A stretch of DNA of 64,000 nucleotides from an uncultured delta proteobacterium (GCA_963736855.1 CAVTQK010000021.1:672001-736000); one strand, 5' to 3'. Positions 35,363 through 60,929 are shown, numbered from the stretch's first letter. Made by a program: numbers and translations. Notes: generated by a model not told the origin, from the letters alone.

Positions 35363-36061
35363 ATGATCGCCAGGGAGTCAACCCGACGGATTCACCAGAT
35401 GGTTTCAATGAACGCCAAACAACCTACCGCCGGCATCATCCTGGCCGCAGGCATGTCCCGGCGATTGGGGCAACCCAAACAGCTTTTGCGTTTTCAAGGC
35501 AGGTTCATCTTAGAAAATGTCTTGGAAAACGCCTTGGCCTCCCGACTGAACACCGTGATCCTGGTCTTGGGACATCAGGCTCAAAAAATTATTAAGGTTC
35601 TCGGTGTAAAGCTGGATCACCCGCGTCTTAAAATGATCGTCAATCGTCGATACCGGGAAGGCTTAAGCAGTAGCCTTCGCGCCGGCCTTCGGGAGGTGAT
35701 AGAATTTCCTTCGGTGATGTTTCTCCTGGGAGATCAACCCTGGATCAATAATCAGCTCATCAATCTACTGCTGGATCGATTCCGGAAGTCTGAAAAAGAT
35801 ATCTGCGTGCCGGTTTATCAAGACAGAAGAGGTAATCCGGTCATTTTCAGTCGGCGGTTTTACGACACCCTCATGAAGATCGAAGGGGATATCGGCGCCC
35901 GGGAGGTCATCGCTTCCAACCTCCGGGATGTTCTCGAGGTGGAGGTATCCGATCCGGACGTCTTTTTCGACATCGATACGTTCTCGGACCTTGAAACCTT
36001 GAATGCGATACAGACCCCCCGCCCTTTATCGGCCAATGAATCAGACAGGGAAGAAGTTTGA
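35363..36061 (+). CDS. mocA: Molybdenum cofactor cytidylyltransferase (MocA-like); start may be ATG 35408
   Basis: GIILAAGMSRRLGQPKQLL, GLSSSL, LGDQP, GNPV, GDIGAR, DIDT. Adjacent to an XDH-family enzyme that would use MCD. Confidence 0.85.
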   Translation: MIARESTRRIHQMVSMNAKQPTAGIILAAGMSRRLGQPKQLLRFQGRFILENVLENALASRLNTVILVLGHQAQKIIKVLGVKLDHPRLKMIVNRRYREGLSSSLRAGLREVIEFPSVMFLLGDQPWINNQLINLLLDRFRKSEKDICVPVYQDRRGNPVIFSRRFYDTLMKIEGDIGAREVIASNLRDVLEVEVSDPDVFFDIDTFSDLETLNAIQTPRPLSANESDREEV

Positions 36062-36087
36062 CCCCCCGAATAAGCGGCAAGTAAAAC

Positions 36088-38415
36088 CTATTCCTCGATA
36101 ATGCAGGCTTCGCCCGGATCCTTCCCGACCTGACGACCGCAGAGGTCGATCCCTTGTTTTTCCCGGATGGCCGCCAGAATCCGTTCGGGGGTCATAGGGA
36201 GATCCTTGATCCGAACACCCGCAGCATCATAAATCGCGTTGGCGATGGCCGGGGCCGTGGGGACGCACCCGGGCTCCCCGATCCCTTTGGCGCCGAAGGG
36301 ACCGTCCGGATCATGGGACTCCAGCACCGGAGCTTTCATGGGAACCACGTCTTTGGCCGTCAGGATCTTGTAATCCCGAAAATTGGGGTTCATGCATTGG
36401 CCCTTCTCCAAGACGATCTGTTCGGTGAGGGCATACCCGATCCCCATCATGACGCCCCCGTACACCTGCCCTTCCAGGAGCATGGGGTTGATGGCTTTAC
36501 CCACATCATGGGCCGCGACGTATTTGAGAATTTTGACCTTACCGGTTTCTTCATCAACCTTCACCCGTACGCCATGAACGCCGAAGGTGTACGTCATGGA
36601 GAGGTTTCCCCGAAAATCCCTCCCCAAGTTTTCGTTGGCCGGATCATAGAAGTATTCCGCCATGAGCATACGGCCGTTTGCTGAAAAGTGTGCTTTCCGG
36701 AGAAGCTTACCGAATTCGATTTTCCTGGAGTCATCCTCCATGGAGCATATATTTCCATCCCTCAAAATAAGCTTTTCGGCCGGAATATTCAGAGCCTTGG
36801 ATGCCGTCTCCAGAATCTGTTCCTTGATTTTTTTGGCAGCCCCGAGAGCCGAATTGCCGGCGACGAAAGTGGTCCGGCTGGCATGAGCACCCACATCCCA
36901 GGGGCAGATATCCGTATCGGTGTGGATCACATGGGTATCTTCCAGGGAAAGGCCGAGTTCTTCCGCCACAATCTGGGCGATGACCGTATCCGAACCCTGC
37001 CCCATATCCGAAGCGCCCGTAAAAATATTGACTTTCCCGAAATCGTCCACCTTGATGATCGTGCCGCACCCATCGGATTTATAGACCCGGGCCCCGCCGC
37101 CGACATGGATCAATGAAGCGATCCCCACACCCTCTCCCTTTTCTTTGGGCCGGCCCATGTCCAGCTCTCTTGCCACGGCATCGATGCACTCCTTGAGGCC
37201 GCAGGAAGTAATCTTGAAATTCTGCGGTGAAACGTATCCACTCTCATTGGCATTGATCTTTCTGAAGGAAACCGGGTCGATCCCGGCCGCTTCGGCGAGC
37301 ATATCCATAGCGCTTTCGATGGCAAAGGTCGCCTGTGGATTTCCATAACCCCGCATGGCCTGGGAATACGTGTTGTTGGTGTAAACACACTTGGCTTCGT
37401 ACCGGACGTTGGGTACCTTGTAGAGCGTCGTGATGGGCATCATCATCACCGATGGCGTGGTGGCCCCCCACGATGTATAAGCGCCGTTGTCGAGAATCAT
37501 GGAAATGTCCCTGAACAGAAGCCTCCCCTCCTTGTCGCAACCCTGGGCGATGTGCATGATTGCGGGCTGTCGCGTCGATGTGGCGATGAATTCTTCCTGC
37601 CGATCAAAGACGACCTTAACGGGTTTTCGGGTTTGACGCGCCAGAAGAATCGCGATGTACTCATATGCGTAGGTATCGAGTTTGCTCCCGAAGCCGCCCC
37701 CAATGACGGGTTTGATCACCCGGACCCGGCGGTTTTTAAGGCCCATCGCCTCCAGTGCTTCAATGAAATCCTTCTGAGCCAGGGATGGAATCTGGGTGTT
37801 GGTATAAATAGTCAGGTTGTCGGCGAAATCAAACCACGCTAAAGCGCCGGAAGTTCCCATGCAACAATGGGTCACCCAGGTGGTGCAAAAACGATCCTCG
37901 ATGATGTGTGCAGACCGGTTTCGGGCTTCATCCACATTACCGTAATGCAGTTTCCATGGCATCTTCAAGATGTTTGTCTTGTGCTCCTCATGAAGCAGGG
38001 GGGCATCCTCCCGCATGGCCGCCACCGGATCGAAGACTCCCGGAAGAGCCTCATAGGTGACCTCGATGAGGCTCAATGCCTCCTCGGCGATATCCCGATC
38101 GATGGCTGCCACTGCCGCCACCTCATCCCGGTAGGAACGAACTTTCCCAGCCTTGAGGGGCCGGTTGTCTTTATAAACACCGAGCTTGATTTCAGGAATA
38201 TCGTATCCCGTAAGTACAGCCCGAACACCGGGAAGCTTTTTCGCTCTGGAGGTATCGATGCGGACGATTTTTGCGTGCGGGTATTTGCTGTACAGGATCT
38301 TTCCATAAAGCATCCCGGGCACTTTCACATCCTGGATATACTGGCTGCGGCCTGTGGCCTTATCCATTGCGTCGAGTTTCGGAACGCTTTTTCCAACGGC
38401 ATGAAACTGGTTCAT
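36088..38415 (-). CDS. Xanthine dehydrogenase-family molybdopterin-binding large subunit (candidate indoleacetate hydroxylase subunit)
   Basis: GGGFGSK, AMRGYGNPQ, MGQG, ASRTT, GQVYGG, GAKGIGE (catalytic Glu). Confidence 0.92.
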   Translation of the reverse strand: MNQFHAVGKSVPKLDAMDKATGRSQYIQDVKVPGMLYGKILYSKYPHAKIVRIDTSRAKKLPGVRAVLTGYDIPEIKLGVYKDNRPLKAGKVRSYRDEVAAVAAIDRDIAEEALSLIEVTYEALPGVFDPVAAMREDAPLLHEEHKTNILKMPWKLHYGNVDEARNRSAHIIEDRFCTTWVTHCCMGTSGALAWFDFADNLTIYTNTQIPSLAQKDFIEALEAMGLKNRRVRVIKPVIGGGFGSKLDTYAYEYIAILLARQTRKPVKVVFDRQEEFIATSTRQPAIMHIAQGCDKEGRLLFRDISMILDNGAYTSWGATTPSVMMMPITTLYKVPNVRYEAKCVYTNNTYSQAMRGYGNPQATFAIESAMDMLAEAAGIDPVSFRKINANESGYVSPQNFKITSCGLKECIDAVARELDMGRPKEKGEGVGIASLIHVGGGARVYKSDGCGTIIKVDDFGKVNIFTGASDMGQGSDTVIAQIVAEELGLSLEDTHVIHTDTDICPWDVGAHASRTTFVAGNSALGAAKKIKEQILETASKALNIPAEKLILRDGNICSMEDDSRKIEFGKLLRKAHFSANGRMLMAEYFYDPANENLGRDFRGNLSMTYTFGVHGVRVKVDEETGKVKILKYVAAHDVGKAINPMLLEGQVYGGVMMGIGYALTEQIVLEKGQCMNPNFRDYKILTAKDVVPMKAPVLESHDPDGPFGAKGIGEPGCVPTAPAIANAIYDAAGVRIKDLPMTPERILAAIREKQGIDLCGRQVGKDPGEACIIEE

Positions 38416-38434
38416 AACTTCCCCGCTTTCTTAT

Positions 38435-38947
38435 TTACTGCTCCTCTTCGGCCTGCCAGGCCACCACTTTCACCTTTTCCTCGGCTTTACTGCTCACCGA
38501 CCGTATCGAATCGATGATCTGGACATACCCCGTACACCTGCAGATGTTCCCGGAAATGGCATCCTTGATTTCTTCTTCTCCGGCAGTAAAGTTTTCGTCC
38601 AAAAGAGCTTTGGCCGACAAAATCATTCCGGGCGTGCAAAAACCGCACTGAATCCCTCCGTGTTCCACGAAGGCTTTTTGAAGCGGGTGCAGGGCGCCAT
38701 CGGGCAGGGCCAGCCCTTCGATGGTCAAGACCGTCTTTCCGTCAATCTCAGCCGCCAGGTAAAGACAGGAGTTTACAGCCATTCCATCCACAAGGACGGT
38801 GCATGCTCCGCATTCTCCGCTGCCGCACCCTTCCTTGGTGCCCTGAAGTCCCAGCTCTTCACGGATCAGATGCAGGAGTGTCCAGTGATCTTCGATGCGC
38901 ATCTGCGTCTCGGTGCCGTTTAAAGTGAAGGAAACGGTTCGTTCCAT
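38435..38947 (-). CDS. XDH-family 2x[2Fe-2S] small subunit
   Basis: GTKEGCGSGECGACTV, QCGFCTPG, NICRCTGY. Confidence 0.95.
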   Translation of the reverse strand: MERTVSFTLNGTETQMRIEDHWTLLHLIREELGLQGTKEGCGSGECGACTVLVDGMAVNSCLYLAAEIDGKTVLTIEGLALPDGALHPLQKAFVEHGGIQCGFCTPGMILSAKALLDENFTAGEEEIKDAISGNICRCTGYVQIIDSIRSVSSKAEEKVKVVAWQAEEEQ

Positions 38948-38965
38948 GAATGGCCCCCCATAATG

Positions 38966-39856
38966 TTAATGCGGTGTTTGTGTCTGTTGAACCCGTTCCA
39001 TTGCCTTTTGTCCCATTCGTTTGACTAAAATGCCCACCATTTCCCGGCGATACCAGGCCACACCACGGATGCTGTCCCGGACCTTCGATTCCCGGGCCGC
39101 AATCCTCCCCGCTTCTTCCAGAGTCATTTCATCGATCGGTCTCCCGGTTAAAAATGCCTCAGCTTCGGTAGCTCTCATAGGTGTCGGCGCCGCCACCCCC
39201 AGGGCGATGCGGGCTTTTGTGCATGTTCTCAGGTCCTCCTTCAGGGAAAGAACAACCCCGACTCCCAGGAGCGGGAGTTCCATGGCTTCTCTTCTCCCGA
39301 ACTTAAGATAGGCGCTTCCCGTTCTGGGGAGCAACGGCGGAACAACGATCTCGGTGAGGATTTCACCGGTTTCCAGGTCGCATTGTCCGGGTCCGAGAAA
39401 AAACCGCAGCAGGTCCATGGACCGTTCCCCTTTGGGTCCGTGGATATTGACCCGGGCGTCCAGAGCAACCAAAGGAACGGCGCCGTCCGCCGACGGGACC
39501 GCATTGACGAGGTTGCCGCCGATCGTTGCCACGTTCCGTATCTGAACCGATCCGATGTTTTTGACCGCATCATGGAGAATGGGGTATCGCACCTGCACCG
39601 TCTTGGATGTTTCGATGCGCCGGTGGGTGACAAAAGCGCCGATATAGAGCTCACCATTCTCCGGGTTGAAAAGCGGTCGATCCGGACACAGGATATGTTT
39701 TAAAGAAATGAGATAATCCGGGAAAATCTTTTTTTCTTTGATTTTGAGCAAAATATCCGTTCCGCCGGCGATGTATCTGGCCCGTTCTCCATGGGAAACA
39801 TACATGGAGACGGCCTCATCCAAGGACTTGGGAACCATGTAAGCGAATCGTCTCAT
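38966..39856 (-). CDS. XDH-family FAD-binding medium subunit
   Basis: IAGGTD, IRNVATIGGN, PSADG. No Cys-rich 4Fe-4S insertion. Confidence 0.93.
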   Translation of the reverse strand: MRRFAYMVPKSLDEAVSMYVSHGERARYIAGGTDILLKIKEKKIFPDYLISLKHILCPDRPLFNPENGELYIGAFVTHRRIETSKTVQVRYPILHDAVKNIGSVQIRNVATIGGNLVNAVPSADGAVPLVALDARVNIHGPKGERSMDLLRFFLGPGQCDLETGEILTEIVVPPLLPRTGSAYLKFGRREAMELPLLGVGVVLSLKEDLRTCTKARIALGVAAPTPMRATEAEAFLTGRPIDEMTLEEAGRIAARESKVRDSIRGVAWYRREMVGILVKRMGQKAMERVQQTQTPH

Positions 39857-39880
39857 TTCAACCTCGTCAGTTCTTCTCGT

Positions 39881-41173
39881 TTACTGCCCACGCTCATCGA
39901 AAACCCGCTTCGATTTCCTTTCGGATCTCGGGAGGCACCCGCAATCCATCAAATCAACTCTGCAGCTGACCATCAACTGCTTCTTGACTGCATCGCTGAT
40001 TTTTCTGGAAAGATCGGCCTTCAGGGCATCCGGGACACCTGCCTGGCATTCAACCTTTAGGGTCATATAATCCTTTCCGTCTTCCTCCCGTTTTAAAAGG
40101 ACCTGGTATTCACAGCTCACCCCGGAGATTTGTGACAGCATCTGATCGAATTGGCCGGGGTAGATATTCACACCCCTGAAGATGATCATATCGTCGGATC
40201 GACCCAGGATTCTTCCGTGCAAGGGGAGAACGTTCCCGCAGGAGCAAGGTCGGTCGATCCTTTGGACCAGGTCCCGGGTCCGGTATCGGATCAGAGGAGA
40301 GGCTTCCTTATATAATGTGGTGACGACCATTTCTCCGGTTTCTCCATCCGCCACCGGCTCAAGAGTATCCGGATCCAAAATCTCTAAAATGTAATAATCG
40401 GCCCAGTAGTGGATCCCCTCATGTTTGAAACAATCGAGTCCGGTCCCGGGCCCGTATAGCTCGGTCATGCCGGTGATATCAAACATGTCCTCTAATCCCA
40501 TGAGCTCCCGGATCCTTTTTCTCATGGCGTCCCCGCTTCGCTCGGATCCGAAAATCATTCTCTTCAGCGCGATCTTCCCCTTAAGTTTTCTGCGATCGAT
40601 TTCCTCGGCCATCAAGAGTCCCATGGAAGCGGTGCAACATATGACGGTGGATTGAAGATCTTCCAGGAATTGACACTGCATGTCGATGTTGCCGGGCCCT
40701 ATGGGAATGGCCAAGGCGCCGATCCGCTCGCATCCCAATTGAAAACCGACTCCGGCCGTCCAGATGCCGTAGCCCACTGCGATCTGAACCCGGTCCATGG
40801 GAGTGACCCCCGCCATCTCGTAGCACCGGGCAAAGATGTGCTTCCAATCGTCGATGTCTTTTTGTGTGTAGGCAAGGATCTTTTTCTTTCCCGTGGTTCC
40901 GGAAGAGGCATGGATGCGAACCACTCGTGACTCGGGGACCGAAAGGAGGGGAAACGGATATCCCTCTTTCAGATCATCTGCGGTAGTAAACGGCAAGCGC
41001 TTCAGGTCATCGAAGGATCGGATGAAATCAGGTCTAACACCCGCCTTATCCAGCCGCTTTTTATAAAATGGGGATCCGTTATAGGCATGGGCGACCGTCC
41101 ATCTCAGGCGTTCCAGTTGGTGTGAGTGCAGCGCTTCAAGATTTTCGAATTTCGGCATGAAAGTCTCGGTCAT
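39881..41173 (-). CDS. paaK: Phenylacetate-CoA ligase family aryl-acetate CoA ligase
   Basis: HASSGTTG, YGIWTAGVG, GMTE, IRYRTRD, GRSDDM..RGVN. Confidence 0.88.
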   Translation of the reverse strand: MTETFMPKFENLEALHSHQLERLRWTVAHAYNGSPFYKKRLDKAGVRPDFIRSFDDLKRLPFTTADDLKEGYPFPLLSVPESRVVRIHASSGTTGKKKILAYTQKDIDDWKHIFARCYEMAGVTPMDRVQIAVGYGIWTAGVGFQLGCERIGALAIPIGPGNIDMQCQFLEDLQSTVICCTASMGLLMAEEIDRRKLKGKIALKRMIFGSERSGDAMRKRIRELMGLEDMFDITGMTELYGPGTGLDCFKHEGIHYWADYYILEILDPDTLEPVADGETGEMVVTTLYKEASPLIRYRTRDLVQRIDRPCSCGNVLPLHGRILGRSDDMIIFRGVNIYPGQFDQMLSQISGVSCEYQVLLKREEDGKDYMTLKVECQAGVPDALKADLSRKISDAVKKQLMVSCRVDLMDCGCLPRSERKSKRVFDERGQ

Positions 41174-41276
41174 CCCTTCAATCTCCTCTTTCACTCAAAA
41201 TGTCCCGCGCTATTTTTCACCCGGCAGGAAGCGAATCCGGTAAGCCGTCCTTCCCGTTTTCGATCATTTGAGTTCT

Positions 41277-42998
41277 TTATGTTTTCCGACTATTTCGCAG
41301 GGTTTTGGTCCCTTCGAGATCCGGTTCCCAAGTCTTCGGGTCGATCACGACCCCGTAGTCCTGCTTTGCCCCTTCAATGCTCACATAACCGCGTTCGACA
41401 TCTCTTTTAACCAGGTCCAGTTCTCTTTCGAACGGATTCCCGTATCCTCCCCCGCCGGCACTATAAAAAGCAAGGACATCACCCGGATCGCAAAAGGTGA
41501 GGCCGCTGGGGTCTGCCGGATCCCCGTTTTTTAAAAACCGGGCCTTGGCTCCCGCTTGACCCCCGAAAATCCCCTGGGGCGCATACCGGAACCGGCCGGC
41601 CTGAACCGCAATCGTGACCTGTCCCTGGGGCGCCTTTTCATCATCCGGAATCCGGATTACCATCCTTCGCCCCAGGCCGCCGCGACGTTTTCCGGGGCCT
41701 CCGGAATCACAAACCAGTTCTCTCGCTTCCACAATCAGCGGGGTGTCGCTTTCGAAGATTTCAACGGGTGTATTCGCACCGTTGGCCGGAAAAATGGCAC
41801 AATGATGGCCGTCCATCCGGTTGCTTGCACCCAATCCGCCCCCTCTGATGATCATGGTGTGCCAGGGTTTTCCGTCATGTCTTTTCCCATAAAAGATGTT
41901 GGTCTGGGCCGGGGTTCCGCCGCTGTCGGTGATGATGCGATCCGGTGCTGCCTTGGAAAGGGCGCGAAAGACCATCTCGGTCATAAAATGACCGATCTGC
42001 ATACGGGCGGCAACCGCCGCCGGAAAACGACAATGAACCACCGATCCTTCCGGCGCCGTCATCCGGACCGGCCGGATGGCCCCCTCATTAATCGGAATCT
42101 CCGGATCAAAAGCGCTTTTGATGGCCATAAATACATACGCATAGGTAAAATTGAAGACCACGTTGACTCCCCAGTCCACCTGCGGAGAAGTGCCGTCAAA
42201 ATCCACCGATATATCGTCCCCATCCACTGAGACACACAGCTTGATGTCGATGTCTTTCCGCTTGCCCGCCCCTTCGATCCGGCCTTCATAGGGATACTTC
42301 CCATCCGGTATTTTTGAGATGGCTTCCCGCATGCTTTTTTCAGTGCGCTCGATGATCTCATCAGCCAGATCGTCCAGGTTGTCCAGTTTTTCATCCTGAA
42401 GCATTTCGATGATTTTTTTGGAACAGACATGGTTGGCGGCCACCTGACTCCGGATGTCCCCGACCACCTCCTTGGGCGTCCTCACGTTCCATCGGATCAT
42501 GTTCAGGACTCCTTCGTTGAGAACTCCTGCATCGTAGAGCTTCAACGGCGGGATAAATAGACCCTCTTCATAGACTTCCCGGTTATCGGAGGAGACCCTC
42601 CCCCCGATGTCTGAATGGTGAAAAACGCAGGCGGTAAAAGCCACGGGCCTTCCCTGGTAAAAAATGGGGCTTAAAACACATACGTCGTTAAGATGTCCGG
42701 CCAGAAGCCATGGGTCGTTGACGATAAAAACATCCCCTTCCCGGTATTGGTCCAAGGGAATAGATCGTACGATTTTTTTGACCCCCAACGCCATGGCACC
42801 GGCCTGCCCCGGGGTGCAGAAGGTCCCCTGGACGAGTTCCTGACCGCGGCTGTCCGTAAACATACAGGTATAATCATGGGCATCCCGAAGAAGACTGGAA
42901 AAGGCCGTGCGGGAAACGGATGCGTCGGCCTCGTCCACGATGGAGACCAGACGGCGCCAGAGGATCTCAAGGGTGATGGGATCAAAAGGTTTCGGCAT
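41277..42998 (-). CDS. Hydantoinase B/oxoprolinase family subunit
   Basis: DPITLEI, RTAFS, NDPW..GHLND, HHSDIGG, EEG, NTPVE, DSGGPG, GGGGYG. Start ATG 42998 overlaps the hydantoinase A gene. Confidence 0.92.
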   Translation of the reverse strand: MPKPFDPITLEILWRRLVSIVDEADASVSRTAFSSLLRDAHDYTCMFTDSRGQELVQGTFCTPGQAGAMALGVKKIVRSIPLDQYREGDVFIVNDPWLLAGHLNDVCVLSPIFYQGRPVAFTACVFHHSDIGGRVSSDNREVYEEGLFIPPLKLYDAGVLNEGVLNMIRWNVRTPKEVVGDIRSQVAANHVCSKKIIEMLQDEKLDNLDDLADEIIERTEKSMREAISKIPDGKYPYEGRIEGAGKRKDIDIKLCVSVDGDDISVDFDGTSPQVDWGVNVVFNFTYAYVFMAIKSAFDPEIPINEGAIRPVRMTAPEGSVVHCRFPAAVAARMQIGHFMTEMVFRALSKAAPDRIITDSGGTPAQTNIFYGKRHDGKPWHTMIIRGGGLGASNRMDGHHCAIFPANGANTPVEIFESDTPLIVEARELVCDSGGPGKRRGGLGRRMVIRIPDDEKAPQGQVTIAVQAGRFRYAPQGIFGGQAGAKARFLKNGDPADPSGLTFCDPGDVLAFYSAGGGGYGNPFERELDLVKRDVERGYVSIEGAKQDYGVVIDPKTWEPDLEGTKTLRNSRKT

Positions 42999-47182: not shown

Positions 47183-47260
47183 TACTGATACCTCATTTTG
47201 ATTGATTCTCCCCAACGGCTTCATTTCTTCCGACGTTCCAGTCCGCTCGTCTTATGCCGA

Positions 47261-47971: not shown

Positions 47972-47982
47972 TTGCCATCCTT

Positions 47983-51230: not shown

Positions 51231-52424
51231 TTAGATAATCCCTCTTGTTTTCAGCCCTGCGATGGCCTCTTGAGAATATCCCAGGGCCTCGGAAAGGATC
51301 TTTTGGTTGTGTTCCCCGAAGCGGGGAGGAAAAGACAATTGCCGATCGTTTTGCATCATAAATTCCGTCAGGTAAGGGGACGGTGCGAGGGTGACGCGCA
51401 TATCCGTGACAGGATCCTGAGTATACAGGAGACGGCGTTGCACCAGGGGATCTTCGCAGACCTCTTTGATGCTTTGTATCTTGCTGATGGGTACTGTTAT
51501 GGCCTTGAAAAGATCGATCAACGCCTCGGAGGTCTGCTGGACGGTGACGGCCTCGATTTCTCTGTTGAGGCGCACCACTTCCTTTATTCGGCCGGCATTC
51601 TTCTCATACTCCGGCCGGTCCAGAACTTTGAAAATCTTCTGGGAGACCATGGATTTCCATTGGCGATCGTTTCCCACGGCCAGATAAATGTACCCGTTCT
51701 GTGTCCGATACACGGAAACCGGGGAAAAAAACTCGTGGGTGTTCCCTCTTCGGGCGATCCTTCTCTTTAAGATATCCCTCATGGTGATAGGAACGATGAG
51801 CCAGGAAACCGATGACTCAAACATGGACTGATGGATGCAGGAACCTTGACCGGTTTTTTCCCGGATTAAAAGCGCCTTCATCAGCCGGCCGTAGGAGTGT
51901 TCACTCGTCCCCATATCCGGCAGGGGGATCCCCGTCACCTGGGGGGGGCCGTCGGCTTCCCCGGTCATCTCCATAAGTCCGGATCGGGCCTGGAGTATGG
52001 GATCATAAGCCGCTTCGTTGCTTTCCGGACCGAAGCCGGTAACTCCCAGCCAGATGATATCCTTTTTAATGGATTTCAAAGTGTCGTAGTCGATGCCCAG
52101 CTTGGTGTAGCTCTTCGGGAGCTGATTGGTGGCAAAGATATCGACATTCAGTTTTTCGATGAGAGAATGAAAAATGGCCCGACCTTCCGCTTCACCGAGG
52201 TTCAGGGTCATAGATTCTTTGCCGGCATTGATGCAAAGAAAATAGGCATTCATCCGCTCTTCCCCCAGGATGTTCTCCCCCACCCATCGGTTCGGATCTC
52301 CGTAGACCGGGTGTTCGAGCCTGATGACCCGAATGCCGTCTTGGACCAGACGAAATGTCAGATACGGCAATACAGTGGCCTGCTCCAGAGACAGCATGGT
52401 CAGGTTCTTAAAAAGATTCATCAT
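51231..52424 (-). CDS. Family III (CaiB/BaiF) CoA transferase
   Basis: GDPNR, NAGKES, TGFG, AYDPILQARSGLM, PLPD (catalytic Asp region), PRFGEHN. Confidence 0.88.
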   Translation of the reverse strand: MMNLFKNLTMLSLEQATVLPYLTFRLVQDGIRVIRLEHPVYGDPNRWVGENILGEERMNAYFLCINAGKESMTLNLGEAEGRAIFHSLIEKLNVDIFATNQLPKSYTKLGIDYDTLKSIKKDIIWLGVTGFGPESNEAAYDPILQARSGLMEMTGEADGPPQVTGIPLPDMGTSEHSYGRLMKALLIREKTGQGSCIHQSMFESSVSWLIVPITMRDILKRRIARRGNTHEFFSPVSVYRTQNGYIYLAVGNDRQWKSMVSQKIFKVLDRPEYEKNAGRIKEVVRLNREIEAVTVQQTSEALIDLFKAITVPISKIQSIKEVCEDPLVQRRLLYTQDPVTDMRVTLAPSPYLTEFMMQNDRQLSFPPRFGEHNQKILSEALGYSQEAIAGLKTRGII

Positions 52425-52673: not shown

Positions 52674-52688
52674 TGTATACTGTATACA
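52674..52688. promoter_or_regulatory. Candidate GntR operator upstream of the catabolic operon
   Basis: TGTATAC-T-GTATACA is a perfect inverted repeat. Minus-strand TTGACT at 52703-52698 could be the -35 box. Confidence 0.55.
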
Positions 52689-52888: not shown

Positions 52889-53878
52889 GTGGGCATTTTC
52901 CACATGCAAAATCCAATTCATGACCAAATCCGCCAACGCGCGGCCGAATACCTGTCGGATTCCGCTACAGGCACCGAACTGAAAATCCTCACCGACACCA
53001 GTGATTTTTTCGCTGTGGACTATGGAACCGTCATTTTATTAAACACCAAAGGCTACCTGGTACGTCAAAATGCCAAGGAGGGAAGGTTCGGCATCGACGA
53101 GCAAGAAAAATTCTGGGTCAAACGCGCCGTCGATCTTGAAACGGGGCAGCGAAAGATCATCAAACTCGTTTTTCATGAACGTTTTACGGCCCACGTGGGA
53201 GACATTGCCTTCGAATGTTTTCGAAGCCCTCACAAGGAGGCTCGCATATTAGGCCTGGTGGGCTCCCACGCTAATTTCATGCACGGTTACGCCGCGGCCG
53301 ATGATGCCGGGAACACGGTCCGCGTCATCGACTTCATCTACGGCAAACCCCTCTCCGCCTCGATTGAAGAATTAAACTGCCCCCATGATGTTTTTTTTCA
53401 TCAGCATTTTCCGGCTGTGCTGGATTCTTTTCTGGCATGCGTAGAAGCCATCCGCTTCCTTCATGATCACGGTGAAAAACACGGCGATATTCGACGGGAT
53501 CATATCCTCATCGATCATGAAAGCGGCATTTACCGTTGGATCGATTTCGATTTCAATTACCAGCACCGTGAAAACATCTACGGATACGATCTCTTCGGGC
53601 TGGGAAACATCCTGATCTTTCTGGTGGGTCGGGGTGATGTGCTTCTTCCGAATCTGAAAGTCGAGAATCCTCAGGCTTTCCACCATCTGAGAGAAGAGGA
53701 CCTCAACATCGTCTTTCACCATCGGGTGGCGAATCTGAAAAAGATCTACCCTTACATTCCGGAAAAGCTCAACCGAATCCTGCTCTATTTCTCAAAGGGT
53801 GCCGGCCGATTTTACGACCATACACGACAAGTCCTGGAAGATCTCAACGACTATCGTGCAAGCCCGGGGAGCGCCTAA
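52889..53878 (+). CDS. Protein kinase-like fold protein
   Basis: KIIKL, HGDIRRDHILI catalytic loop, WIDFD, DLFGLG. Confidence 0.75.
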   Translation: MGIFHMQNPIHDQIRQRAAEYLSDSATGTELKILTDTSDFFAVDYGTVILLNTKGYLVRQNAKEGRFGIDEQEKFWVKRAVDLETGQRKIIKLVFHERFTAHVGDIAFECFRSPHKEARILGLVGSHANFMHGYAAADDAGNTVRVIDFIYGKPLSASIEELNCPHDVFFHQHFPAVLDSFLACVEAIRFLHDHGEKHGDIRRDHILIDHESGIYRWIDFDFNYQHRENIYGYDLFGLGNILIFLVGRGDVLLPNLKVENPQAFHHLREEDLNIVFHHRVANLKKIYPYIPEKLNRILLYFSKGAGRFYDHTRQVLEDLNDYRASPGSA

Positions 53879-53953
53879 AATGCACCGACTGCTTCCCAAA
53901 GTCTGTGCCGGTATACTTAAACATCCCGTCCATCCCATATTCAGGAGACGCCC

Positions 53954-54424
53954 ATGAATGCCCATGACCGTTGCTACAACAAAAACGTTCTCATTGCCGT
54001 TGATACTTCCGAAAACGCCCGTCGTGCAGTGTGTTACGTGGCACAGCTCCTCGAAGGAAACGCTGCCTTCACCATCACCCTCATGCATGTGATCAATGAG
54101 CCGGAAGAAGACTATTTTTCAAGCCCCGTCGAACAGGCAAAATGGGTCCGGGAATACCGGCAAAAGATCGATGCCGTTATGAACGACTATGAGCAGATTC
54201 TGATTCAGGCCGGGTTCGCATCATCCGCCATCTTCAAAAACGTCTTCACCCGGTTCTGCCCGTCTCTGGCCGAATGTATCCTCACGGAACAGAATAAACT
54301 GGCCTATGACACTGTTGTGGTGGGACGCCAGGGGTTGTCCCGAAGCGAAGAGTTCCTTTTTGGAAGCGTATCGAGTAAAATCGTCACCCACGCCAAAAAC
54401 TGCACAGTATGGGTGGTCTCCTGA
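53954..54424 (+). CDS. Universal stress protein
   Basis: VLIAVDTS, VVGRQG, FGSVSSKIV, VWVV. Confidence 0.9.
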   Translation: MNAHDRCYNKNVLIAVDTSENARRAVCYVAQLLEGNAAFTITLMHVINEPEEDYFSSPVEQAKWVREYRQKIDAVMNDYEQILIQAGFASSAIFKNVFTRFCPSLAECILTEQNKLAYDTVVVGRQGLSRSEEFLFGSVSSKIVTHAKNCTVWVVS

Positions 54425-56753: not shown

Positions 56754-58130
56754 ATGCAGGTCAAGAAGATTTTTTTACCCGAGTCTGAGTTGCCGCGTCA
56801 ATGGTACAATATCGCCGCAGACATGCCTACACCCTTAGAGCCTCCGCTTCACCCGGGAACCGGGCAGCCCGTGGGACCCGACGACCTGGCTCCCATCTTC
56901 CCCATGCCCCTCATCGAGCAGGAAGTCAGCCGGCAGCGGTTCATCGACATACCCGAACCTGTCTTGGAAAAATACCTCATCTGGAGGCCGACTCCCATGT
57001 ATCGGGCCTTCAACCTGGAAAAACACCTGGGAACACCTGCAAAAATCTATTTCAAAAATGAAGGGGTCAGCCCGGCAGGAAGCCACAAGCCCAACACCGC
57101 ACTGGCTCAGGCTTATTACAATAAGATCAGCGGCACCAAGAAGATCACAACGGAAACCGGCGCCGGCCAGTGGGGAAGCGCCCTGGCCATGTGCTGCTGC
57201 CTCTTCGGACTGGAATGCAAAGTCTACATGGTGAAAGTGAGCTTCCAGCAGAAACCCTATCGCCGGCTCATGATGGAAACATGGGGCGCCAAGTGCATCG
57301 CCAGCCCCAGCACCGAAACCAATGCGGGACGAAAAATTCTTGAAAAAAATCCGGATTCCCCCGGTAGTTTGGGGATCGCCATCAGCGAGGCAGTGGAAGC
57401 GGCTGTCTTGGATAAAGACACCAAATACTCCCTGGGCAGCGTGTTGAACCATGTGTTACTGCATCAAACCGTCGTCGGTCAGGAAGCCCAAAAACAAATG
57501 GCTCTGTTCGGGGATTACCCGGATGTCGTCATCGCCTGCGCCGGCGGCGGAAGCAATTTCGCCGGTTTGTCCTTTCCGTTCATCCGGGATAAAATCCACG
57601 GCAAGAAGGTGGAAATCCTTGCGGTGGAACCGGCCTCTTGTCCCACCATGACCCGGGGGCCCTTTGCCTATGACTTCGGCGACACCGTGCAGATGACACC
57701 GTTGTTGCCCATGCACACTTTAGGCCACGGCTTTATCCCTGAGCCGATCCACGCCGGCGGCCTACGATATCACGGAATGGCACCGCTGGTCAGTCAGTTA
57801 ATCCTGGACAAGCTGATCACACCGATCGCTGTTCCCCAACTGGAAACCTTCGAAGCAGGCCTGACTTTTGCCCGGACGGAAGGTTTCATCAGCGCCCCGG
57901 AAACGAATCATGCGATAGCGGTGCTCATCCGCGAAGCCAAGAAGGCCAAGGAAGAAGGAAAACAAAAGGTACTCCTGCTCAACTGGAGCGGTCACGGATT
58001 GGTGGACATGGCTGCCTACGAGGCCTATCTCACCGGCAGGCTTAAAAATTATGAGCTCCCGCAGGAAGAGATCAATCGCGCCCTGGCCGAAATCGCGCCC
58101 TTACCGAAGCCCAGACAGTACAAGAAATGA
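56754..58130 (+). CDS. trpB2: Stand-alone tryptophan synthase beta, TrpB2 type
   Basis: WYNI, GSHKPN (PLP Lys), [30 protein letters not shown]. 458 aa, with no trpA nearby. Confidence 0.92.
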
Positions 58131-58194
58131 TAATCTCCTTTCGATCACGCCTCTCGGAGATGGTACTCCTCCGGGAGGCAAACGAAAGCCCGAT

Positions 58195-58479
58195 ATGACC
58201 CAAAAAATCACACCCCCTGAGGACGACTTCAAGATCCGCTGCCGAAAACTCGGTCATCAAATATTCTTTTCATACTGCCGAAGTGAAAACCGGGGACTCC
58301 CCTGTCCCGAAACGATAGACTGCTGGCACATCCATTTCCAAGTTCAAAATTACCTGGAACAAGAACTCACTCCAGAGGAATGGAATAAGGCATTTGCCTC
58401 CCGCTCGAAGCCAAAAGTGATGACCCTATTAGACCTGATCGAACAAGCCAGGGCTTCAAAGGAAGAAGGATCCAGATGA
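58195..58479 (+). CDS. Small Cys/His-containing hypothetical protein
   Basis: CRKLGH..YC..LPC...CW pattern. Its stop overlaps the iorA start (ATGA). Confidence 0.65.
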   Translation: MTQKITPPEDDFKIRCRKLGHQIFFSYCRSENRGLPCPETIDCWHIHFQVQNYLEQELTPEEWNKAFASRSKPKVMTLLDLIEQARASKEEGSR

Positions 58480-60332
58480 AAGAGGCGTTTTTGCTCGGAA
58501 ACGGTGCCATCGCCCTGGGACTCCTGGAAGGCGGGTGCCAAGTGGTCACCTCTTACCCCGGAACCCCCAGTTCGGAAATATTACCCGAGATCGTCCACCT
58601 GATTAATACCGAAAATCTGAAGACCTATGCGGAATGGTCCACCAATGAAAAGGTGGCCTTCGACAATGCCTATGCCGCGGCCATTTCCGGGAAACGGGCC
58701 GCCTGCTGTATGAAGCAGGTGGGTTTGAACGTCGCGGCGGACTCACTGATGAGCGCCGCCTACCTGGGCACCACTGGAGCGCTGGTCATCATCTCCTGCG
58801 ACGATCCCGGTCCGCATTCTTCCCAGACCGAGCAGGATACGCGGATGATGGCACGGCTTGCCAAGGTCCCGGTGCTGGATCCCTCCACTCCTAAAGAAGC
58901 CCGGGAGATGGCAGCACTTGCCCTGGACCTCTCCGAAGAGTTCCGGATCCCGGTGATTTTAAGGCCCGGCATCCGGGTCTGTCATGCCAGGCAGAACTTT
59001 CAGTGGGAACCTCTTTCCATAAGAAACAAATCCGCAGTTTTTGAAAAGAACCCCGCACGGTGGGCGGCAACCCCCCGGTTTCGATACCTTCTCCATCAGG
59101 AGCTGAACCAAAAACTCATTCAAATATCCAAAAAATTTGAACGATTAAAAACTATTAACAAACATAACCTCATTAAAAACAGGAAATATCCTCTGGGGAT
59201 CGTGGCGGGGGGTGTCCCCTATTCCATTGTTCGGGACCTTCTTACCGAAAATCAGCGGGAGGATATCCCCGTCCTTAAACTGGGTGCACCCTATCCTTTC
59301 CCGGAAAAGCCGGCGAAACAATTCTTGAGAGCCTGTAAAAAAGTGCTGGTCCTGGAAGAAACCGATACTCTCATCGAATACTTCCTCAGGGATCGAAAAA
59401 AGGTCCTGGGGAGGCTTTCCGGCCATGTTCCCACGGAAGGAGAACTGGTTCCCCAGGCCATTTCGCGGGTGATCCAACGAGTCCTAACGGATCTGGGCAT
59501 CGATCCGATGGAGGTCTCAGAAAACACCGAGGCTCAGGAGCTGGTTCGGAGTCTCAACCTTCCGATCCGAAAACCCACACTTTGCCCGGGTTGCCCGCAT
59601 CGGGCATCCTTTTTCGCCATCCGCAAAGCACAATCCAAGGCGATCTTCACTTCCGACATCGGCTGTTACACCCTTGGCATGAACCTCGGCGCCGTCGATA
59701 CCTGCCTGGACATGGGAGCCGGAATCACCATGGCCTCCGGATTCTTTCATGCTTTTGCCCAGGACGGGGTCGAACAACCCATTGTGGCCACCATGGGGGA
59801 TTCCACCTTTTTCCATTCAGGTACCGCCGGCCTTTTAAACGCAGTCTACAACGGGTCCCGGTTCATCCTGGTGCTGCTGGATAACGAAACGACGGCCATG
59901 ACCGGGATGCAACCCACCCCGGCTCTGGGCATCCGTGCCGACGGAAGCCAAGGCAAATCGATTCCCCTGGAAAGGGTCGTAGCGGGTTGCGGCGTGGACT
60001 TCATCGAAGTGGTGGATCCCTATGACATCAAGGCCATGACCGCCCTCTTGAAGAAGGCTAAAGCGTACGTCACGAGTCCGGATGGAGGGATCGCCGTTAT
60101 CATCGCCAGACACCCCTGCGTCATTGCCTATCGGGACCGGGCGATCCCGAAAAGAATACCCGTCACCGTCACCGACGACTGCGACGAGTGCGGGTTCTGC
60201 CATGAACGTTTCGAATGCCCGGCCTTATTCAAAGACCCGGAAATCGGACATACCGCTGTCAACAAATCCATCTGCGCCGAATGTGGGGTCTGTATACAGG
60301 TCTGCCCCAAGGGCGCCATTGTGGGCGTGTGA
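58476..60332 (+). CDS. iorA: Indolepyruvate:ferredoxin oxidoreductase alpha subunit
   Basis: LLGNGAIA, YPGTPSSE, NEKVA, MKQVGLNVA, SSQTEQD, CPGCPH, DIGCY, GDSTF, TAMTG, C-terminal 2x[4Fe-4S]. Confidence 0.93.
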   Translation: MKEAFLLGNGAIALGLLEGGCQVVTSYPGTPSSEILPEIVHLINTENLKTYAEWSTNEKVAFDNAYAAAISGKRAACCMKQVGLNVAADSLMSAAYLGTTGALVIISCDDPGPHSSQTEQDTRMMARLAKVPVLDPSTPKEAREMAALALDLSEEFRIPVILRPGIRVCHARQNFQWEPLSIRNKSAVFEKNPARWAATPRFRYLLHQELNQKLIQISKKFERLKTINKHNLIKNRKYPLGIVAGGVPYSIVRDLLTENQREDIPVLKLGAPYPFPEKPAKQFLRACKKVLVLEETDTLIEYFLRDRKKVLGRLSGHVPTEGELVPQAISRVIQRVLTDLGIDPMEVSENTEAQELVRSLNLPIRKPTLCPGCPHRASFFAIRKAQSKAIFTSDIGCYTLGMNLGAVDTCLDMGAGITMASGFFHAFAQDGVEQPIVATMGDSTFFHSGTAGLLNAVYNGSRFILVLLDNETTAMTGMQPTPALGIRADGSQGKSIPLERVVAGCGVDFIEVVDPYDIKAMTALLKKAKAYVTSPDGGIAVIIARHPCVIAYRDRAIPKRIPVTVTDDCDECGFCHERFECPALFKDPEIGHTAVNKSICAECGVCIQVCPKGAIVGV

Positions 60333-60347
60333 TACCAGGAAGAGAAA

Positions 60348-60929
60348 ATGGAGACCGTCAACTTCATACTGAGCGGGCTGGGCGGACAGGGAATCCTTTT
60401 TTTGACCAAGGTGCTGGCTCAATGCGCCCTGGATCGGGGAGTCCCGGTTTTAGGGGCGGAAACCCACGGAATGGCCCAGCGCGGCGGGTCGGTAGTATCA
60501 CATCTAAAAATCGGTAACGTGGAAAGCAGCCTGGTGCGTGAGGGGACCGCTCATTTTCTGTTATCCCTCGAGGAAAACGAAGCCTACCGAGGCATCCCCT
60601 TTTTAGCCAAACATGGAAAGCTTTACGTCAACGCTTCCGGTGATTCCTTTCCGAAAGAGACCGTAAGGCTTTTCTTTGAAAAGATGAATATTGCCTTCCA
60701 CGCGTTGCCTGTGGGAAAAATCGCCTTCGAACTGGGTGCGCCGCTCGCCGCCAACTCCGGACTTTTAGGGTTGTTTGCCGCCTTTGATGGCGTCCCCTTC
60801 GCACGGGAAGAAATCCGGGAAAACATTGAACGATTCAGCCCGAAACCGTTCCGAAGTCTCAACGTGAAGGTCTTCGACTCCTGCCGGCAAAAAGCGATCT
60901 CGTCGGGGCTGACGAATGACCGGCTATAA
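60348..60929 (+). CDS. iorB: Indolepyruvate:ferredoxin oxidoreductase beta subunit
   Basis: GLGGQG, ETHGMAQRGGSV. Follows iorA. Confidence 0.92.
   Translation: METVNFILSGLGGQGILFLTKVLAQCALDRGVPVLGAETHGMAQRGGSVVSHLKIGNVESSLVREGTAHFLLSLEENEAYRGIPFLAKHGKLYVNASGDSFPKETVRLFFEKMNIAFHALPVGKIAFELGAPLAANSGLLGLFAAFDGVPFAREEIRENIERFSPKPFRSLNVKVFDSCRQKAISSGLTNDRL

What the first reader, a model, noticed from the sequence alone, without database searches (positions are those of the whole stretch)
35363..60929. Anaerobic indole-3-acetate (iaa-type) catabolic gene set in a strict anaerobe, extended with an entry module
Seen in sequence: a tight minus-strand operon (CoA transferase III, etfB, Fd-etfA, acyl-CoA dehydrogenase, GntR, B12 mutase small and large subunits, hydantoinase A/B, PaaK-type ligase, XDH-family M/S/L subunits), with mocA downstream and an HADH/ECH fusion on the divergent side. 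Established knowledge: this combination defines the anaerobic indoleacetate pathway of Azoarcus/Aromatoleum, with Mo-enzyme hydroxylation to 2-oxo-IAA, ATP-dependent lactam opening to (2-aminophenyl)succinate, CoA activation, B12 rearrangement and beta-oxidation to 2-aminobenzoyl-CoA. Inference: the same chemistry operates here in an obligate anaerobe, with added ETF, TrpB2 and IorAB. No thiolase or binding protein is in the window, and the substrate could be a related N-heterocycle.
Basis: partly seen in the sequence, partly recalled or inferred. Interest (0 to 1): 0.85.

Follow-up and report, generated by a model that had tools for sequence, protein, structure and literature searches.

The report
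Indole-compound breakdown regulon, sulfate reducer
This is a sulfate-reducing bacterium's version of the known oxygen-free pathway that breaks down the plant hormone indoleacetate, and comparison with related genomes suggests it also captures free indole by first building it into tryptophan, which would be an undescribed way to eat indole without oxygen.

Summary
All listed genes are present and intact. The host is a Desulfobacterales sulfate reducer (dsrA, bamB, oah, had). Mutase, acyl-CoA dehydrogenase (GGG motif), Mo enzyme, CoA transferase and HADH/ECH are orthologues of an iaa-type reference cluster, so the core is the indoleacetate pathway. Such operons with ETF in strict anaerobes are already in print (PMC8360864). 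Two parts are not orthologous: the ligase (PaaK type) and the hydantoinase pair (separate clade). I found in no paper searched: (1) a palindrome, TGTATAC-N-GTATACA (window 52674-52688), perfect in 28 of 36 iaa-positive versus 5 of 155 other Desulfobacterales genomes; (2) the same site heads trpB2, serA, serC and iorAB, even on separate contigs; (3) trpB2 lies beside iorA in 16 of 22 iaa-positive versus 2 of 41 other genomes, and beside serA in 8 of 25 versus 2 of 95. Best reading: indole + phosphoserine to Trp (TrpB2), to indolepyruvate, to indoleacetyl-CoA (IorAB), to 2-aminobenzoyl-CoA. No Trp aminotransferase is in the regulon, serA/serC are unlinked in this genome, and a biosynthetic-salvage reading remains open. 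No expression or enzyme data. The scan had not noted this elsewhere.

The parts
52674..52688 (.). Palindromic operator TGTATAC-T-GTATACA, probable site of the cluster's GntR/FCD regulator, between the divergent coaT and kinase-usp-hadh-trpB2-iorAB runs
   Evidence: Only perfect copy in the 3.9-Mb genome; only match in the window even with 3 mismatches; perfect copies in 28 of 36 iaa-positive and 5 of 155 other genomes, reversed control 2 of 191. Binding by GntR is inferred.
51231..52424 (-). CoA-transferase family III, IaaL orthologue (intramolecular CoA shift on aminophenylsuccinyl-CoA)
   Evidence: PF02515; best own-genome hit of the reference CoA transferase, 37%
50379..51206 (-). EtfB
   Evidence: PF01012
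49175..50362 (-). EtfA with N-terminal 2x[4Fe-4S] ferredoxin domain; candidate electron acceptor of the IaaF orthologue
   Evidence: PF01012, PF00766, Fer4; role inferred from PMC8360864
47983..49116 (-). Acyl-CoA dehydrogenase, IaaF (benzylmalonyl-CoA dehydrogenase) clade, GGG in place of YEG
   Evidence: Motif LLNGGGTHE; GGG in 115 of its 120 nearest hits; 44% to the reference enzyme; one clade with it, SH-aLRT 99, quick tree
47261..47998 (-). GntR/FCD regulator
   Evidence: PF00392 + PF07729; seen in 67 of 80 mutase loci
46778..47224 (-). B12-binding small mutase subunit (IaaG-like)
   Evidence: PF02310; 43% to reference
45146..46774 (-). Large mutase subunit (IaaH-like)
   Evidence: 55% to reference; shares GGGG, QTTALC and SFNxNV signatures that MCM, HCM-like and other mutases lack, tree support 1.0; keeps the Tyr and Arg of dicarboxylate mutases (alignment to human MCM)
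42982..45129 (-). ATP-dependent lactamase alpha subunit (hydantoinase A family), not the reference clade
   Evidence: PF01968/PF05378; 33% to the reference HyuA; separate clade
41277..42998 (-). Lactamase beta subunit (hydantoinase B family), not the reference clade
   Evidence: PF02538; 30% to reference; motifs DAHD/HLND/FHHSD against EAKD/NQND/GHQAD in the reference
39881..41194 (-). PaaK-fold arylacetate-CoA ligase; candidate indoleacetate-CoA ligase, not an IaaB orthologue
   Evidence: TIGR02155 402 bits, under its cut-off of 646; PDB best hits are PaaK; distinct from the genome's own PaaK; no hit in reference cluster
38966..39856 (-). Mo-hydroxylase FAD subunit
   Evidence: PF00941; 37% to reference
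38435..38947 (-). Mo-hydroxylase 2Fe-2S subunit
   Evidence: PF01799; 47% to reference
36088..38415 (-). Mo-hydroxylase large subunit (IaaK-like; C2 hydroxylation of the indole ring)
   Evidence: 50% to reference; groups with it, support 0.97, apart from the genome's other XDH-family enzymes
35363..36061 (+). MocA-like Moco cytidylyltransferase, convergent
   Evidence: TIGR03310 183.9 bits, cut-off 186.45; same convergent position in several relatives
52889..54424 (+). Kinase-like gene and Usp gene; lineage-specific insert, probably not part of the pathway
   Evidence: Pkinase weak, PF00582; absent in L013, L020
54587..56611 (+). 3-hydroxyacyl-CoA dehydrogenase / enoyl-CoA hydratase fusion (IaaP-like)
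   Evidence: PF02737 + PF00378; 54% to reference
56754..58130 (+). TrpB2, stand-alone tryptophan synthase beta; proposed indole entry
   Evidence: TIGR01415 and NF009057 over cut-off; PLP-lysine motif SHKPN and Arg338 in HAGGLRYHG kept
58195..58479 (+). Conserved 94-aa four-Cys ORF that travels with trpB2; function not known
   Evidence: No Pfam; only hypothetical Thermodesulfobacteriota clusters in the Atlas; behind trpB2 in many relatives, with or without iaa genes
58476..60332 (+). IorA, indolepyruvate:ferredoxin oxidoreductase alpha
   Evidence: TIGR03336 639.9 bits, cut-off 650.9; all 10 genomes with a copy at 66% or more identity carry the iaa mutase
60348..60929 (+). IorB
   Evidence: PF01558, IOR_beta family below cut-off
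5475..13801 (.). Mo/W support genes 22 kb away: Tup-like ABC uptake (+), split xdhC, yqeC, yqeB (-); probable maturation of the Mo enzyme
   Evidence: yqeB, yqeC over cut-off; these genes adjoin the iaa cluster in L022, L155, L180

Best explanation
The locus is the core of a GntR-controlled regulon by which a sulfate reducer funnels indolic compounds into indoleacetyl-CoA and degrades it to 2-aminobenzoyl-CoA. Lower pathway (orthology shown, chemistry taken from Aromatoleum): indoleacetyl-CoA is hydroxylated at C2 by the Mo enzyme, the lactam is opened with ATP by HyuAB, the CoA transferase shifts CoA, the B12 mutase gives (2-aminobenzyl)malonyl-CoA, the GGG dehydrogenase oxidises and decarboxylates it with Fd-ETF as acceptor, the HADH/ECH fusion and an unlinked thiolase (G000:C21:63789-65000) release acetyl-CoA and 2-aminobenzoyl-CoA, which goes to the class II reductase route (bamB-F, had, oah elsewhere). 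Three entries (all inferred): free indoleacetate through the PaaK-fold ligase; tryptophan through a general aminotransferase and IorAB; free indole through TrpB2, which joins it to O-phosphoserine supplied by SerA and SerC. My odds: lower pathway 0.85; Trp entry by IorAB 0.7; bulk indole entry by TrpB2 0.5.
For: Orthology: best-hit test against a canonical-order reference cluster L122/L123 puts 10 of 12 enzyme genes' best own-genome hits in the window; trees and signatures for ACAD, mutase, XdhL. Host has dsrA over cut-off, a BamB fragment matching 4z3w at E 2e-195, oah and had over cut-off, MeaB- and epimerase-like genes. Linkage in a 191-genome order sample: mutase-trpB2 within 30 kb in 14 of 34, mutase-iorA in 13 of 23, control mutase-trpB1 in 0 of 21; trpB2-iorA within 6 kb in 16 of 22 iaa-positive against 2 of 41 others; trpB2-serA 8 of 25 against 2 of 95; iorA-serA 12 of 22 against 1 of 43. 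Loci fetched afterwards added short, ACT-less-length SerA (314-321 aa) beside trpB2 in G844, G898, G903 and SerC beside trpB2 in G039, G895, G934, G966. Operator: of 35 iaa-positive genomes whose trpB2 region I read, 13 have the site within 350 bp of the trpB2 start and 10 at the head of a same-strand run holding trpB2; in G039, G895, G934, G966 it lies between serC and trpB2, and in G840 between trpB2 and iorA, with no core gene beside it. None of 6 non-iaa trpB2 regions without an IaaP-like neighbour has it. TrpB2 enzymes use O-phospho-L-serine and bind indole tightly (statements in PMC11917138, passages). IOR-type enzymes make indoleacetyl-CoA from indolepyruvate (PMC13290082, passages). 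Electron count of the loop closes at 8 [H] per indole to 2-aminobenzoate + CO2 (my arithmetic). No tnaA found in the genome, so indole would come from outside.
Against: No enzyme, growth or expression data. In this genome serA (C15:355000) and serC (C15:44667) are unlinked and have no operator copy even at 4 mismatches; the phosphoserine link comes from relatives only. No aromatic aminotransferase was seen at any operator site I read; nine class I/II aminotransferases lie elsewhere. 12 of 35 iaa-positive genomes have no site at trpB2, four of them although they have sites elsewhere. trpB2 is near-universal in the order (164 of 191), and 15 of 36 iaa-positive genomes showed no TrpB1, so there it must also make Trp for protein; the serA beside it is often the only match at E 1e-60. 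A true trpD follows iorB convergently in families f12 and f19. The one strict anaerobe grown on indole formed oxindole, isatin and anthranilate (PMC6221969, passages), which is another route. The loop costs about 3-4 ATP equivalents against roughly -270 kJ/mol for indole oxidation with sulfate (recalled constants), a tight budget. Kin are not independent, so the Fisher values overstate. Position tables were cut at 150 rows for trpB2 and serA. The lactamase and ligase are not the reference orthologues.
Confidence: 0.55

Rival explanations
1. Core is indoleacetate catabolism, but TrpB2, SerA/SerC and IorAB are co-regulated for tryptophan supply: TrpB2 salvages traces of indole and IorAB runs backwards (reductive carboxylation of indoleacetyl-CoA). 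Indole is not a growth substrate by this route.
For: TrpB2 is the only beta subunit found in 15 of 36 iaa-positive genomes; trpD adjoins the module in f12 and f19; the genome's other iorAB sits beside a PaaK (C15:701729-705593), an arrangement I recall as used for aryl-acid salvage; indole salvage by TrpB2 is published for Thermococcus (cited in PMC11085991); energy budget is tight.
Against: 21 of 36 iaa-positive genomes, this one included, have TrpB1. Moving serA and serC under the catabolic operator, short SerA forms without the regulatory C-terminal region, and V4R/XylR-type regulators beside serA-trpB2 in G042 and G902 fit high flux better than the small demand of protein synthesis (inference).
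Confidence: 0.25
2. Indole is degraded directly (indole, oxindole, isatin, isatinate) and IorAB acts on 2-aminophenylglyoxylate to give 2-aminobenzoyl-CoA; a second XDH-family enzyme seen in many relatives does the hydroxylations; TrpB2 is a bystander.
For: Oxindole, isatin and anthranilate are the reported intermediates in Desulfobacterium indolicum (PMC6221969). A second XDH trio adjoins the cluster in f12, f19, f69 and several Syntrophaceae/Desulfomonilaceae loci, and adjoins trpB2 in non-iaa G015.
Against: The window has no second XDH and the genome's two other XDH large subunits do not group with that clade. It does not explain serA and serC under the same operator.
Confidence: 0.08
3. 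The cluster acts on a related heterocycle or substituted indole (for example a ring-substituted indoleacetate or another fused lactam), which would explain the different lactamase and ligase.
For: HyuA/HyuB form their own clade with different active-site motifs; only 4 of 36 iaa-positive genomes carry the reference-type HyuA, as an extra module with its own ABC transporter and ligase; PMC8360864 lists three IaaF paralogues in one Desulfocarbo genome; GGG also occurs in unrelated ACADs.
Against: Mutase, ACAD, Mo enzyme, CoA transferase, HADH/ECH and thiolase are all reference orthologues, and the linked TrpB2 and IorAB are indole-specific families.
Confidence: 0.12

Closest known systems
iaa operon of Aromatoleum aromaticum EbN1 / A. 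evansii (iaaABCDEFGHIJKLMPQR; gene list in PMC9613470, passages; IaaB, F, GH, L, M roles in PMC8360864)
   Same: Orthologous mutase, GGG dehydrogenase, Mo enzyme, CoA transferase, HADH/ECH and (unlinked) thiolase; GntR regulator; a 2-mismatch copy of the palindrome lies at the gntR start of the stand-in reference L122.
   Different: PaaK-fold ligase in place of the ~500-aa AMP ligase; lactamase from another clade; added Fd-ETF; different gene order; TrpB2 and IorAB attached; thiolase and binding protein unlinked. Compared through a stand-in (G329), not the Aromatoleum sequences.
Predicted iaa operons of strict anaerobes (Desulfatiglans anilini, strain NaphS2, Desulfocarbo indianensis, Ferroglobus placidus) in PMC8360864
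   Same: iaaF orthologue plus dedicated ETF in a sulfate reducer. The window is very likely of this group.
   Different: The parts I read do not mention TrpB2, SerA/SerC, IorAB, an operator or a non-orthologous lactamase. I could not read the 2012 and 2016 primary papers or the 2014 Ferroglobus paper, which may describe IOR as a Trp entry (recalled).
Indole salvage through tryptophan in Bifidobacterium (PMC11085991) and TrpB2 salvage in Thermococcus kodakarensis (cited there)
   Same: Outside indole is joined to a serine unit by TrpB and moves on through Trp.
   Different: There the product is indolelactate or protein Trp; here the route would feed complete ring degradation and energy metabolism.
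Caprolactamase CapAB / 5-oxoprolinase family
   Same: Closest NCBIfam and PDB relatives of HyuAB: ATP-dependent lactam hydrolysis.
   Different: Far below the CapAB cut-offs (543 and 271 bits against 1000); own clade.

Membership tests
iaa (anaerobic indoleacetate) gene cluster | IaaF-clade acyl-CoA dehydrogenase with GGG in place of YEG | tested here: met
   GGG alone is not unique to the clade.
iaa (anaerobic indoleacetate) gene cluster | Two-subunit B12 mutase of the IaaGH clade | tested here: met
   55% and 43% to the stand-in; shared signatures; support 1.0
iaa (anaerobic indoleacetate) gene cluster | Three-subunit Mo hydroxylase of the reference clade | tested here: met
   37/47/50%; large subunit groups with the stand-in at 0.97; the small subunit alone is not discriminating (47% against 45% for a paralogue)
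iaa (anaerobic indoleacetate) gene cluster | Family III CoA transferase IaaL and HADH/ECH fusion | tested here: met
   Best own-genome hits, 37% (next 25%) and 54% (next 29%); no tree built for these two
iaa (anaerobic indoleacetate) gene cluster | Reference-type ATP-dependent lactamase pair | tested here: not met
   Same family, other clade: 33%/30%, different motifs; reference type (53-54%) in only 4 of 36 iaa-positive genomes
iaa (anaerobic indoleacetate) gene cluster | IaaB-type indoleacetate-CoA ligase | tested here: not met
   Window ligase is PaaK-fold; stand-in ligase has only generic 31-35% hits in the genome
iaa (anaerobic indoleacetate) gene cluster | Thiolase of the reference type in the cluster | tested here: inconclusive
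   Absent from the window; orthologue at G000:C21:63789-65000, 46% to stand-in, 70% to a cluster-linked thiolase of L068; no operator directly before it
iaa (anaerobic indoleacetate) gene cluster | Binding protein IaaM | not tested
   None in the window; no reference sequence in the stand-in; TRAP systems adjoin the cluster in many relatives
iaa (anaerobic indoleacetate) gene cluster | Induction by and growth on indoleacetate | not testable with these tools
   Needs a culture or RNA data
TrpB2 (stand-alone, O-phosphoserine-dependent tryptophan synthase) | TIGR01415/PRK12391 over cut-off, outside the trp operon, PLP lysine and active-site Arg | tested here: met
   trpA and a frameshifted trpB1 are on C8, trpD on C9. 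That this Arg sets phosphoserine use is recalled, not from a call.
TrpB2 (stand-alone, O-phosphoserine-dependent tryptophan synthase) | Activity with O-phosphoserine and indole | not testable with these tools
   Needs an assay
Indolepyruvate:ferredoxin oxidoreductase IorAB | TIGR03336 / TIGR03334 over cut-off | tested here: inconclusive
   Alpha 639.9 against 650.9; beta 112 against 205.8: IOR family, substrate not fixed by sequence
Sulfate reducer with class II benzoyl-CoA pathway | dsrA, bamB, had, oah in the genome | tested here: met
   bamB is in three frames in this assembly, which also splits gyrA

The most novel reading that the evidence does not exclude
Many Desulfobacterales degrade free indole by a 'build-to-break' loop: a GntR regulon (TGTATAC-N-GTATACA) turns on SerA/SerC and TrpB2 to condense indole into tryptophan at catabolic flux, IorAB converts the keto acid to indoleacetyl-CoA, and a deltaproteobacterial iaa variant with its own lactamase clade, PaaK-fold ligase and either IaaF+ETF or a decarboxylase+dehydrogenase pair finishes it. 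This would be a gene-level pathway for anaerobic indole degradation, and a biosynthetic enzyme used as the activating step of a catabolic route.
Probability: 0.45. Interest if true: 0.82.

Novelty: new variant of a known kind. Interest (0 to 1): 0.62.

Why it matters
A 2018 review calls the mechanism of anaerobic indole degradation 'a black box' (PMC6221969, passage). If the regulon reading holds, it names enzymes for it, and each step can be assayed with expressed proteins. The mutase marker is in 36 of 191 sampled Desulfobacterales genomes (20 of 116 genera) and in loci titled Syntrophaceae, Desulfomonilaceae, Desulfarculaceae and Desulfobacula, so indole and tryptophan breakdown in anoxic sediments may be far more common than the few cultured examples imply. 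The dedicated Fd-ETF also offers the electron acceptor that could not be found for IaaF of Aromatoleum (PMC8360864). If only the core holds, the finding is an expected member of an already predicted group and of modest interest.

Tried and rejected
Aromatoleum's own Iaa sequences could not be reached: plasmid search gave only generic ACADs at 40% or less; the 50% representatives and cluster look-ups held no named IaaF; none of 120 hits had the primer-encoded ends; a 400-genome family sample around G329 held no second cluster. I used L122/L123 as stand-in. Ebenau-Jehle 2012 and the 2014 Ferroglobus paper are not held; the 2016 IaaB/IaaL paper was not looked up; supplements of PMC9765128 hold no iaa gene names. 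I first took a 240-aa ORF beside trpD for TrpC; it is an ABC/AAA-type ATPase. Three AFOR genes tested were not BamB before the C17 copy was. Class I benzoyl-CoA reductase: only one HGD-D gene in the genome, not pursued. Sigma-70 promoter and terminator scan was not informative. The careful ACAD tree did not finish; the quick tree is cited. Trees are FastTree on hand-picked rows. No fold or complex prediction was run. Earlier findings of the scan: none on look-alike DNA or by words, one unrelated note. Literature searches for the TrpB2/IOR/iaa link or the operator found nothing; the library lacks most subscription papers.

Full report
Observation. The window is G000:C21:672001-736000. The minus-strand run from the CoA transferase (52424) to the Mo-enzyme large subunit (36088) is tight. 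mocA is on the plus strand and converges on it. On the divergent side lie a kinase-like gene, a Usp gene, the HADH/ECH fusion, trpB2, a 94-aa four-Cys ORF and iorAB. GC is 54-56% across most of the cluster against 49% for the contig. The order is conserved in relatives: among 80 loci fetched with the mutase, the neighbours recur in 39 to 75. In G001, G002, G004 and G006 an AMP-ligase gene stands where the window has only kinase and Usp, so this lineage seems to have lost it.

Host. Nearest named relatives are Desulfobacterales / Deltaproteobacteria bins. The genome has dsrA, a bamB in three frames followed by bamC-F-like genes, had and oah, five classical thiolases, MeaB- and epimerase-like genes, trpA with a frameshifted trpB1, and no tnaA match (100% complete by markers). 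The assembly also splits gyrA, so I read these frameshifts as indel errors. 'Strict anaerobe' is fair; cytochrome bd-like genes are present.

What is known. PMC8360864 (parts 1, 3 and 4 of 6 and reference passages read) shows that IaaF oxidises and decarboxylates benzylmalonyl-CoA, that all IaaF-class enzymes carry GGG for YEG, that activation to indoleacetyl-CoA by IaaB comes first, and that predicted iaa operons of Desulfatiglans anilini, other sulfate reducers and Ferroglobus placidus contain an extra ETF. So an iaa set with ETF in a strict anaerobe is in print. PMC9613470 (passages) gives the gene list; PMC11659651 (passages) confirms the two activities of IaaL. The letters for thiolase (A), lactamase (C, E), Mo enzyme (IJK) and HADH/ECH (P) are recalled, not from a call.

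Orthology. I could not fetch Aromatoleum sequences. A 400-genome sample of another phylum gave one cluster, G329, in the order gntR, thiolase, 508-aa AMP ligase, hyuA, hyuB, ACAD, mutase small, mutase large, Mo enzyme M/S/L, CoA transferase, HADH/ECH. Its ACAD begins and ends like the protein encoded by the published iaaF primers, and relatives at 79-80% are named benzylmalonyl-CoA dehydrogenase by JGI. I used it as stand-in. Its proteins find their best own-genome hits in the window: mutase 55/43%, Mo enzyme 37/47/50%, HADH/ECH 54%, ACAD 44%, CoA transferase 37%, HyuA/B 33/30%; the thiolase hits C21:63789-65000 (46%); the ligase has no clear orthologue. The ACAD joins the stand-in in a GGG clade (SH-aLRT 99, quick tree, 67 rows), though GGG also occurs outside it. 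The mutase shares three sequence signatures with the stand-in that six other mutases lack and keeps the Tyr/Arg pair of dicarboxylate mutases while losing the HxQT motif, which fits a bulky aryl substrate (inference). XdhL groups with the stand-in. In contrast, HyuA and HyuB form their own long-branched clade with different putative active-site motifs; the reference type occurs in 4 of 36 iaa-positive genomes, as an extra module with ABC transporter and ligase beside the window-type pair. The ligase is PaaK-fold and distinct from the genome's own PaaK. The cluster is therefore a variant: it works like iaa, but fails two membership features.

The entry module. In 191 Desulfobacterales genomes of at least 90% completeness, the mutase orthologue is in 36, trpB2 in 164, IorA-like in 70, SerA in 176. 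From the listed positions (trpB2 153 genomes, iorA 70, serA 141): mutase-trpB2 within 30 kb in 14 of 34 (eight families), mutase-iorA 13 of 23, mutase-serA 6 of 26, control mutase-trpB1 0 of 21; two genomes have mutase and trpB2 far apart on one contig, most others are on different contigs. trpB2-iorA within 6 kb: 16 of 22 iaa-positive against 2 of 41 others; trpB2-serA 8 of 25 against 2 of 95; iorA-serA 12 of 22 against 1 of 43. Both a close (75% or more) and a generic (60-69%) TrpB2 type, and both a close and a 47-51% IorA type, are linked, which points to more than one recruitment. SerA and SerC were identified by Pfam and NCBIfam. Loci fetched after this count added further serA or serC neighbours of trpB2. 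TrpB2 enzymes are O-phosphoserine-dependent and bind indole tightly (PMC11917138, passages; title only of the primary paper), so serA and serC are the expected supply genes.

The operator. The intergenic region holds TGTATACTGTATACA at 52674-52688, the only perfect copy in the genome. Perfect copies occur in 28 of 36 iaa-positive and 5 of 155 other genomes; the reversed pattern in 2 of 191. Two of the five exceptions have trpB2, the site and an IaaP-like gene together and are probably fragments of the same system; two lie at a different GntR gene and one before a sigma-54 activator, so the motif is a GntR-type site, not unique to this system. It precedes coaT in most loci where the operon start was seen. 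Of 35 iaa-positive genomes whose trpB2 region I read, 13 have it (0-1 mismatch) within 350 bp of trpB2, 10 at the head of a run holding trpB2 (the window among them), and 12 not at all. Where it lies between hadh and trpB2 it could serve hadh only; but in G039, G895, G934 and G966 it lies between serC and trpB2, in G840 between trpB2 and iorA, and in G029 just before trpB2. In family f29 three separate loci (core, serA-iorAB, serC/trpB2) each carry a copy. I found no paper on this site for this system.

Mechanism. Shown: gene content, orthology, linkage, shared site. Taken from established knowledge: the lower pathway. Inferred: that GntR binds the site; that IorAB runs oxidatively to give indoleacetyl-CoA (precedent PMC13290082, passages); that TrpB2 feeds indole in bulk (precedent for indole to Trp to indolelactate in PMC11085991, passages). 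Net loop: indole + 3-phosphoglycerate to indolepyruvate; to indoleacetyl-CoA + CO2; to 2-aminobenzoyl-CoA + acetyl-CoA + CO2; acetyl-CoA + CO2 back to the C3 unit. The electron balance closes; the ATP cost is high for a sulfate reducer, so co-metabolism with a C3 donor is possible.

Against. No aminotransferase for Trp in the regulon; serA and serC unlinked and without site in this genome; TrpB2 is the sole beta subunit found in 15 of 36; trpD adjoins the module in two families; the cultured indole-degrading sulfate reducer shows oxindole and isatin (PMC6221969, passages); phylogenetic dependence; cut tables; no expression data. Primary papers of 2012, 2014 and 2016 and their supplements were not seen and may already note IOR or TrpB2 beside iaa.

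Verdict. Real; core already predicted; new variant. The regulon that joins TrpB2, SerA/SerC and IorAB to the iaa core is the part worth following. Interest 0.62.

Noticed in passing
L154:4599-6164 and neighbours; L157, L159, L162, L164, L206, L219, L220, L225: Lineages whose operon lacks IaaF+ETF instead have an MmdA-like carboxyltransferase (521 aa) plus a YEG acyl-CoA dehydrogenase behind the same operator. Of 67 loci or genomes with the operon start seen: 37 IaaF/ETF only, 15 carboxyltransferase only, 0 both, 15 neither within the DNA held. Candidate two-step replacement of IaaF (decarboxylase, then dehydrogenase).
   Followed up: partly
L172, L173, L017, L019, L139, L152, L055: A second module at the cluster end in a few genomes: reference-type HyuA and HyuB split around an ABC transporter, a glyoxalase-like gene and a divergent PaaK-like ligase.
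   Followed up: partly
L147:5464-7871, L155, L194, L053, L075: A second XDH trio with a saccharopine-dehydrogenase-like gene and a class III aminotransferase recurs beside the cluster and beside trpB2, also in non-iaa G015; some copies have the operator. Possibly a tryptamine/indoleacetaldehyde entry.
   Followed up: partly
G000:C21:56894-72631 (L116): The reference-type thiolase sits in a locus with a single HGD-D gene, an activase, an ADP-forming ligase, two AMP ligases, a Liv-type ABC transporter and an ACAD; may hold the missing uptake step.
   Followed up: partly
G000:C21:667898-668617; L147:12480-13220: A 240-aa ABC/AAA-type ATPase recurs beside trpB2 or trpD in several relatives; this genome's copy (58%) lies 4 kb before the window.
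   Followed up: no
L124:13564-14808, L185:12910-15084: V4R/XylR-N plus LuxR-type regulators precede serA-trpB2 modules that lack the GntR site; a second way to sense an aromatic inducer.
   Followed up: no
L208, L209: In family f29 the operator also heads an ACAD-etfB-etfA operon whose ACAD has VEG, not GGG.
   Followed up: no
window 11104-13801: yqeB and yqeC (selenium-dependent Mo hydroxylase markers) with a split xdhC; they adjoin the iaa cluster in some relatives, so the Mo enzyme may carry a labile selenium.
   Followed up: partly
window 18-4778: Trypsin-like, TPR-repeat and CHAT (caspase-like) ORFs, in several pieces, probably frameshifted in the assembly.
   Followed up: no
window 29092-35238: Lower-GC (40-47%) block: ERCC4/Hef-like nuclease, RecQ-like helicase, SNF2 helicase and YqhG-like gene; weak hits to DISARM/Dpd models below cut-off; possible defence island.
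   Followed up: no
window 13806-24429: Glycogen metabolism genes (split branching enzyme, synthase, phosphorylase, amylase/debranching fusion).
   Followed up: no
G000:C21:811928: A one-mismatch copy of the palindrome far from the cluster; target not examined.
   Followed up: no
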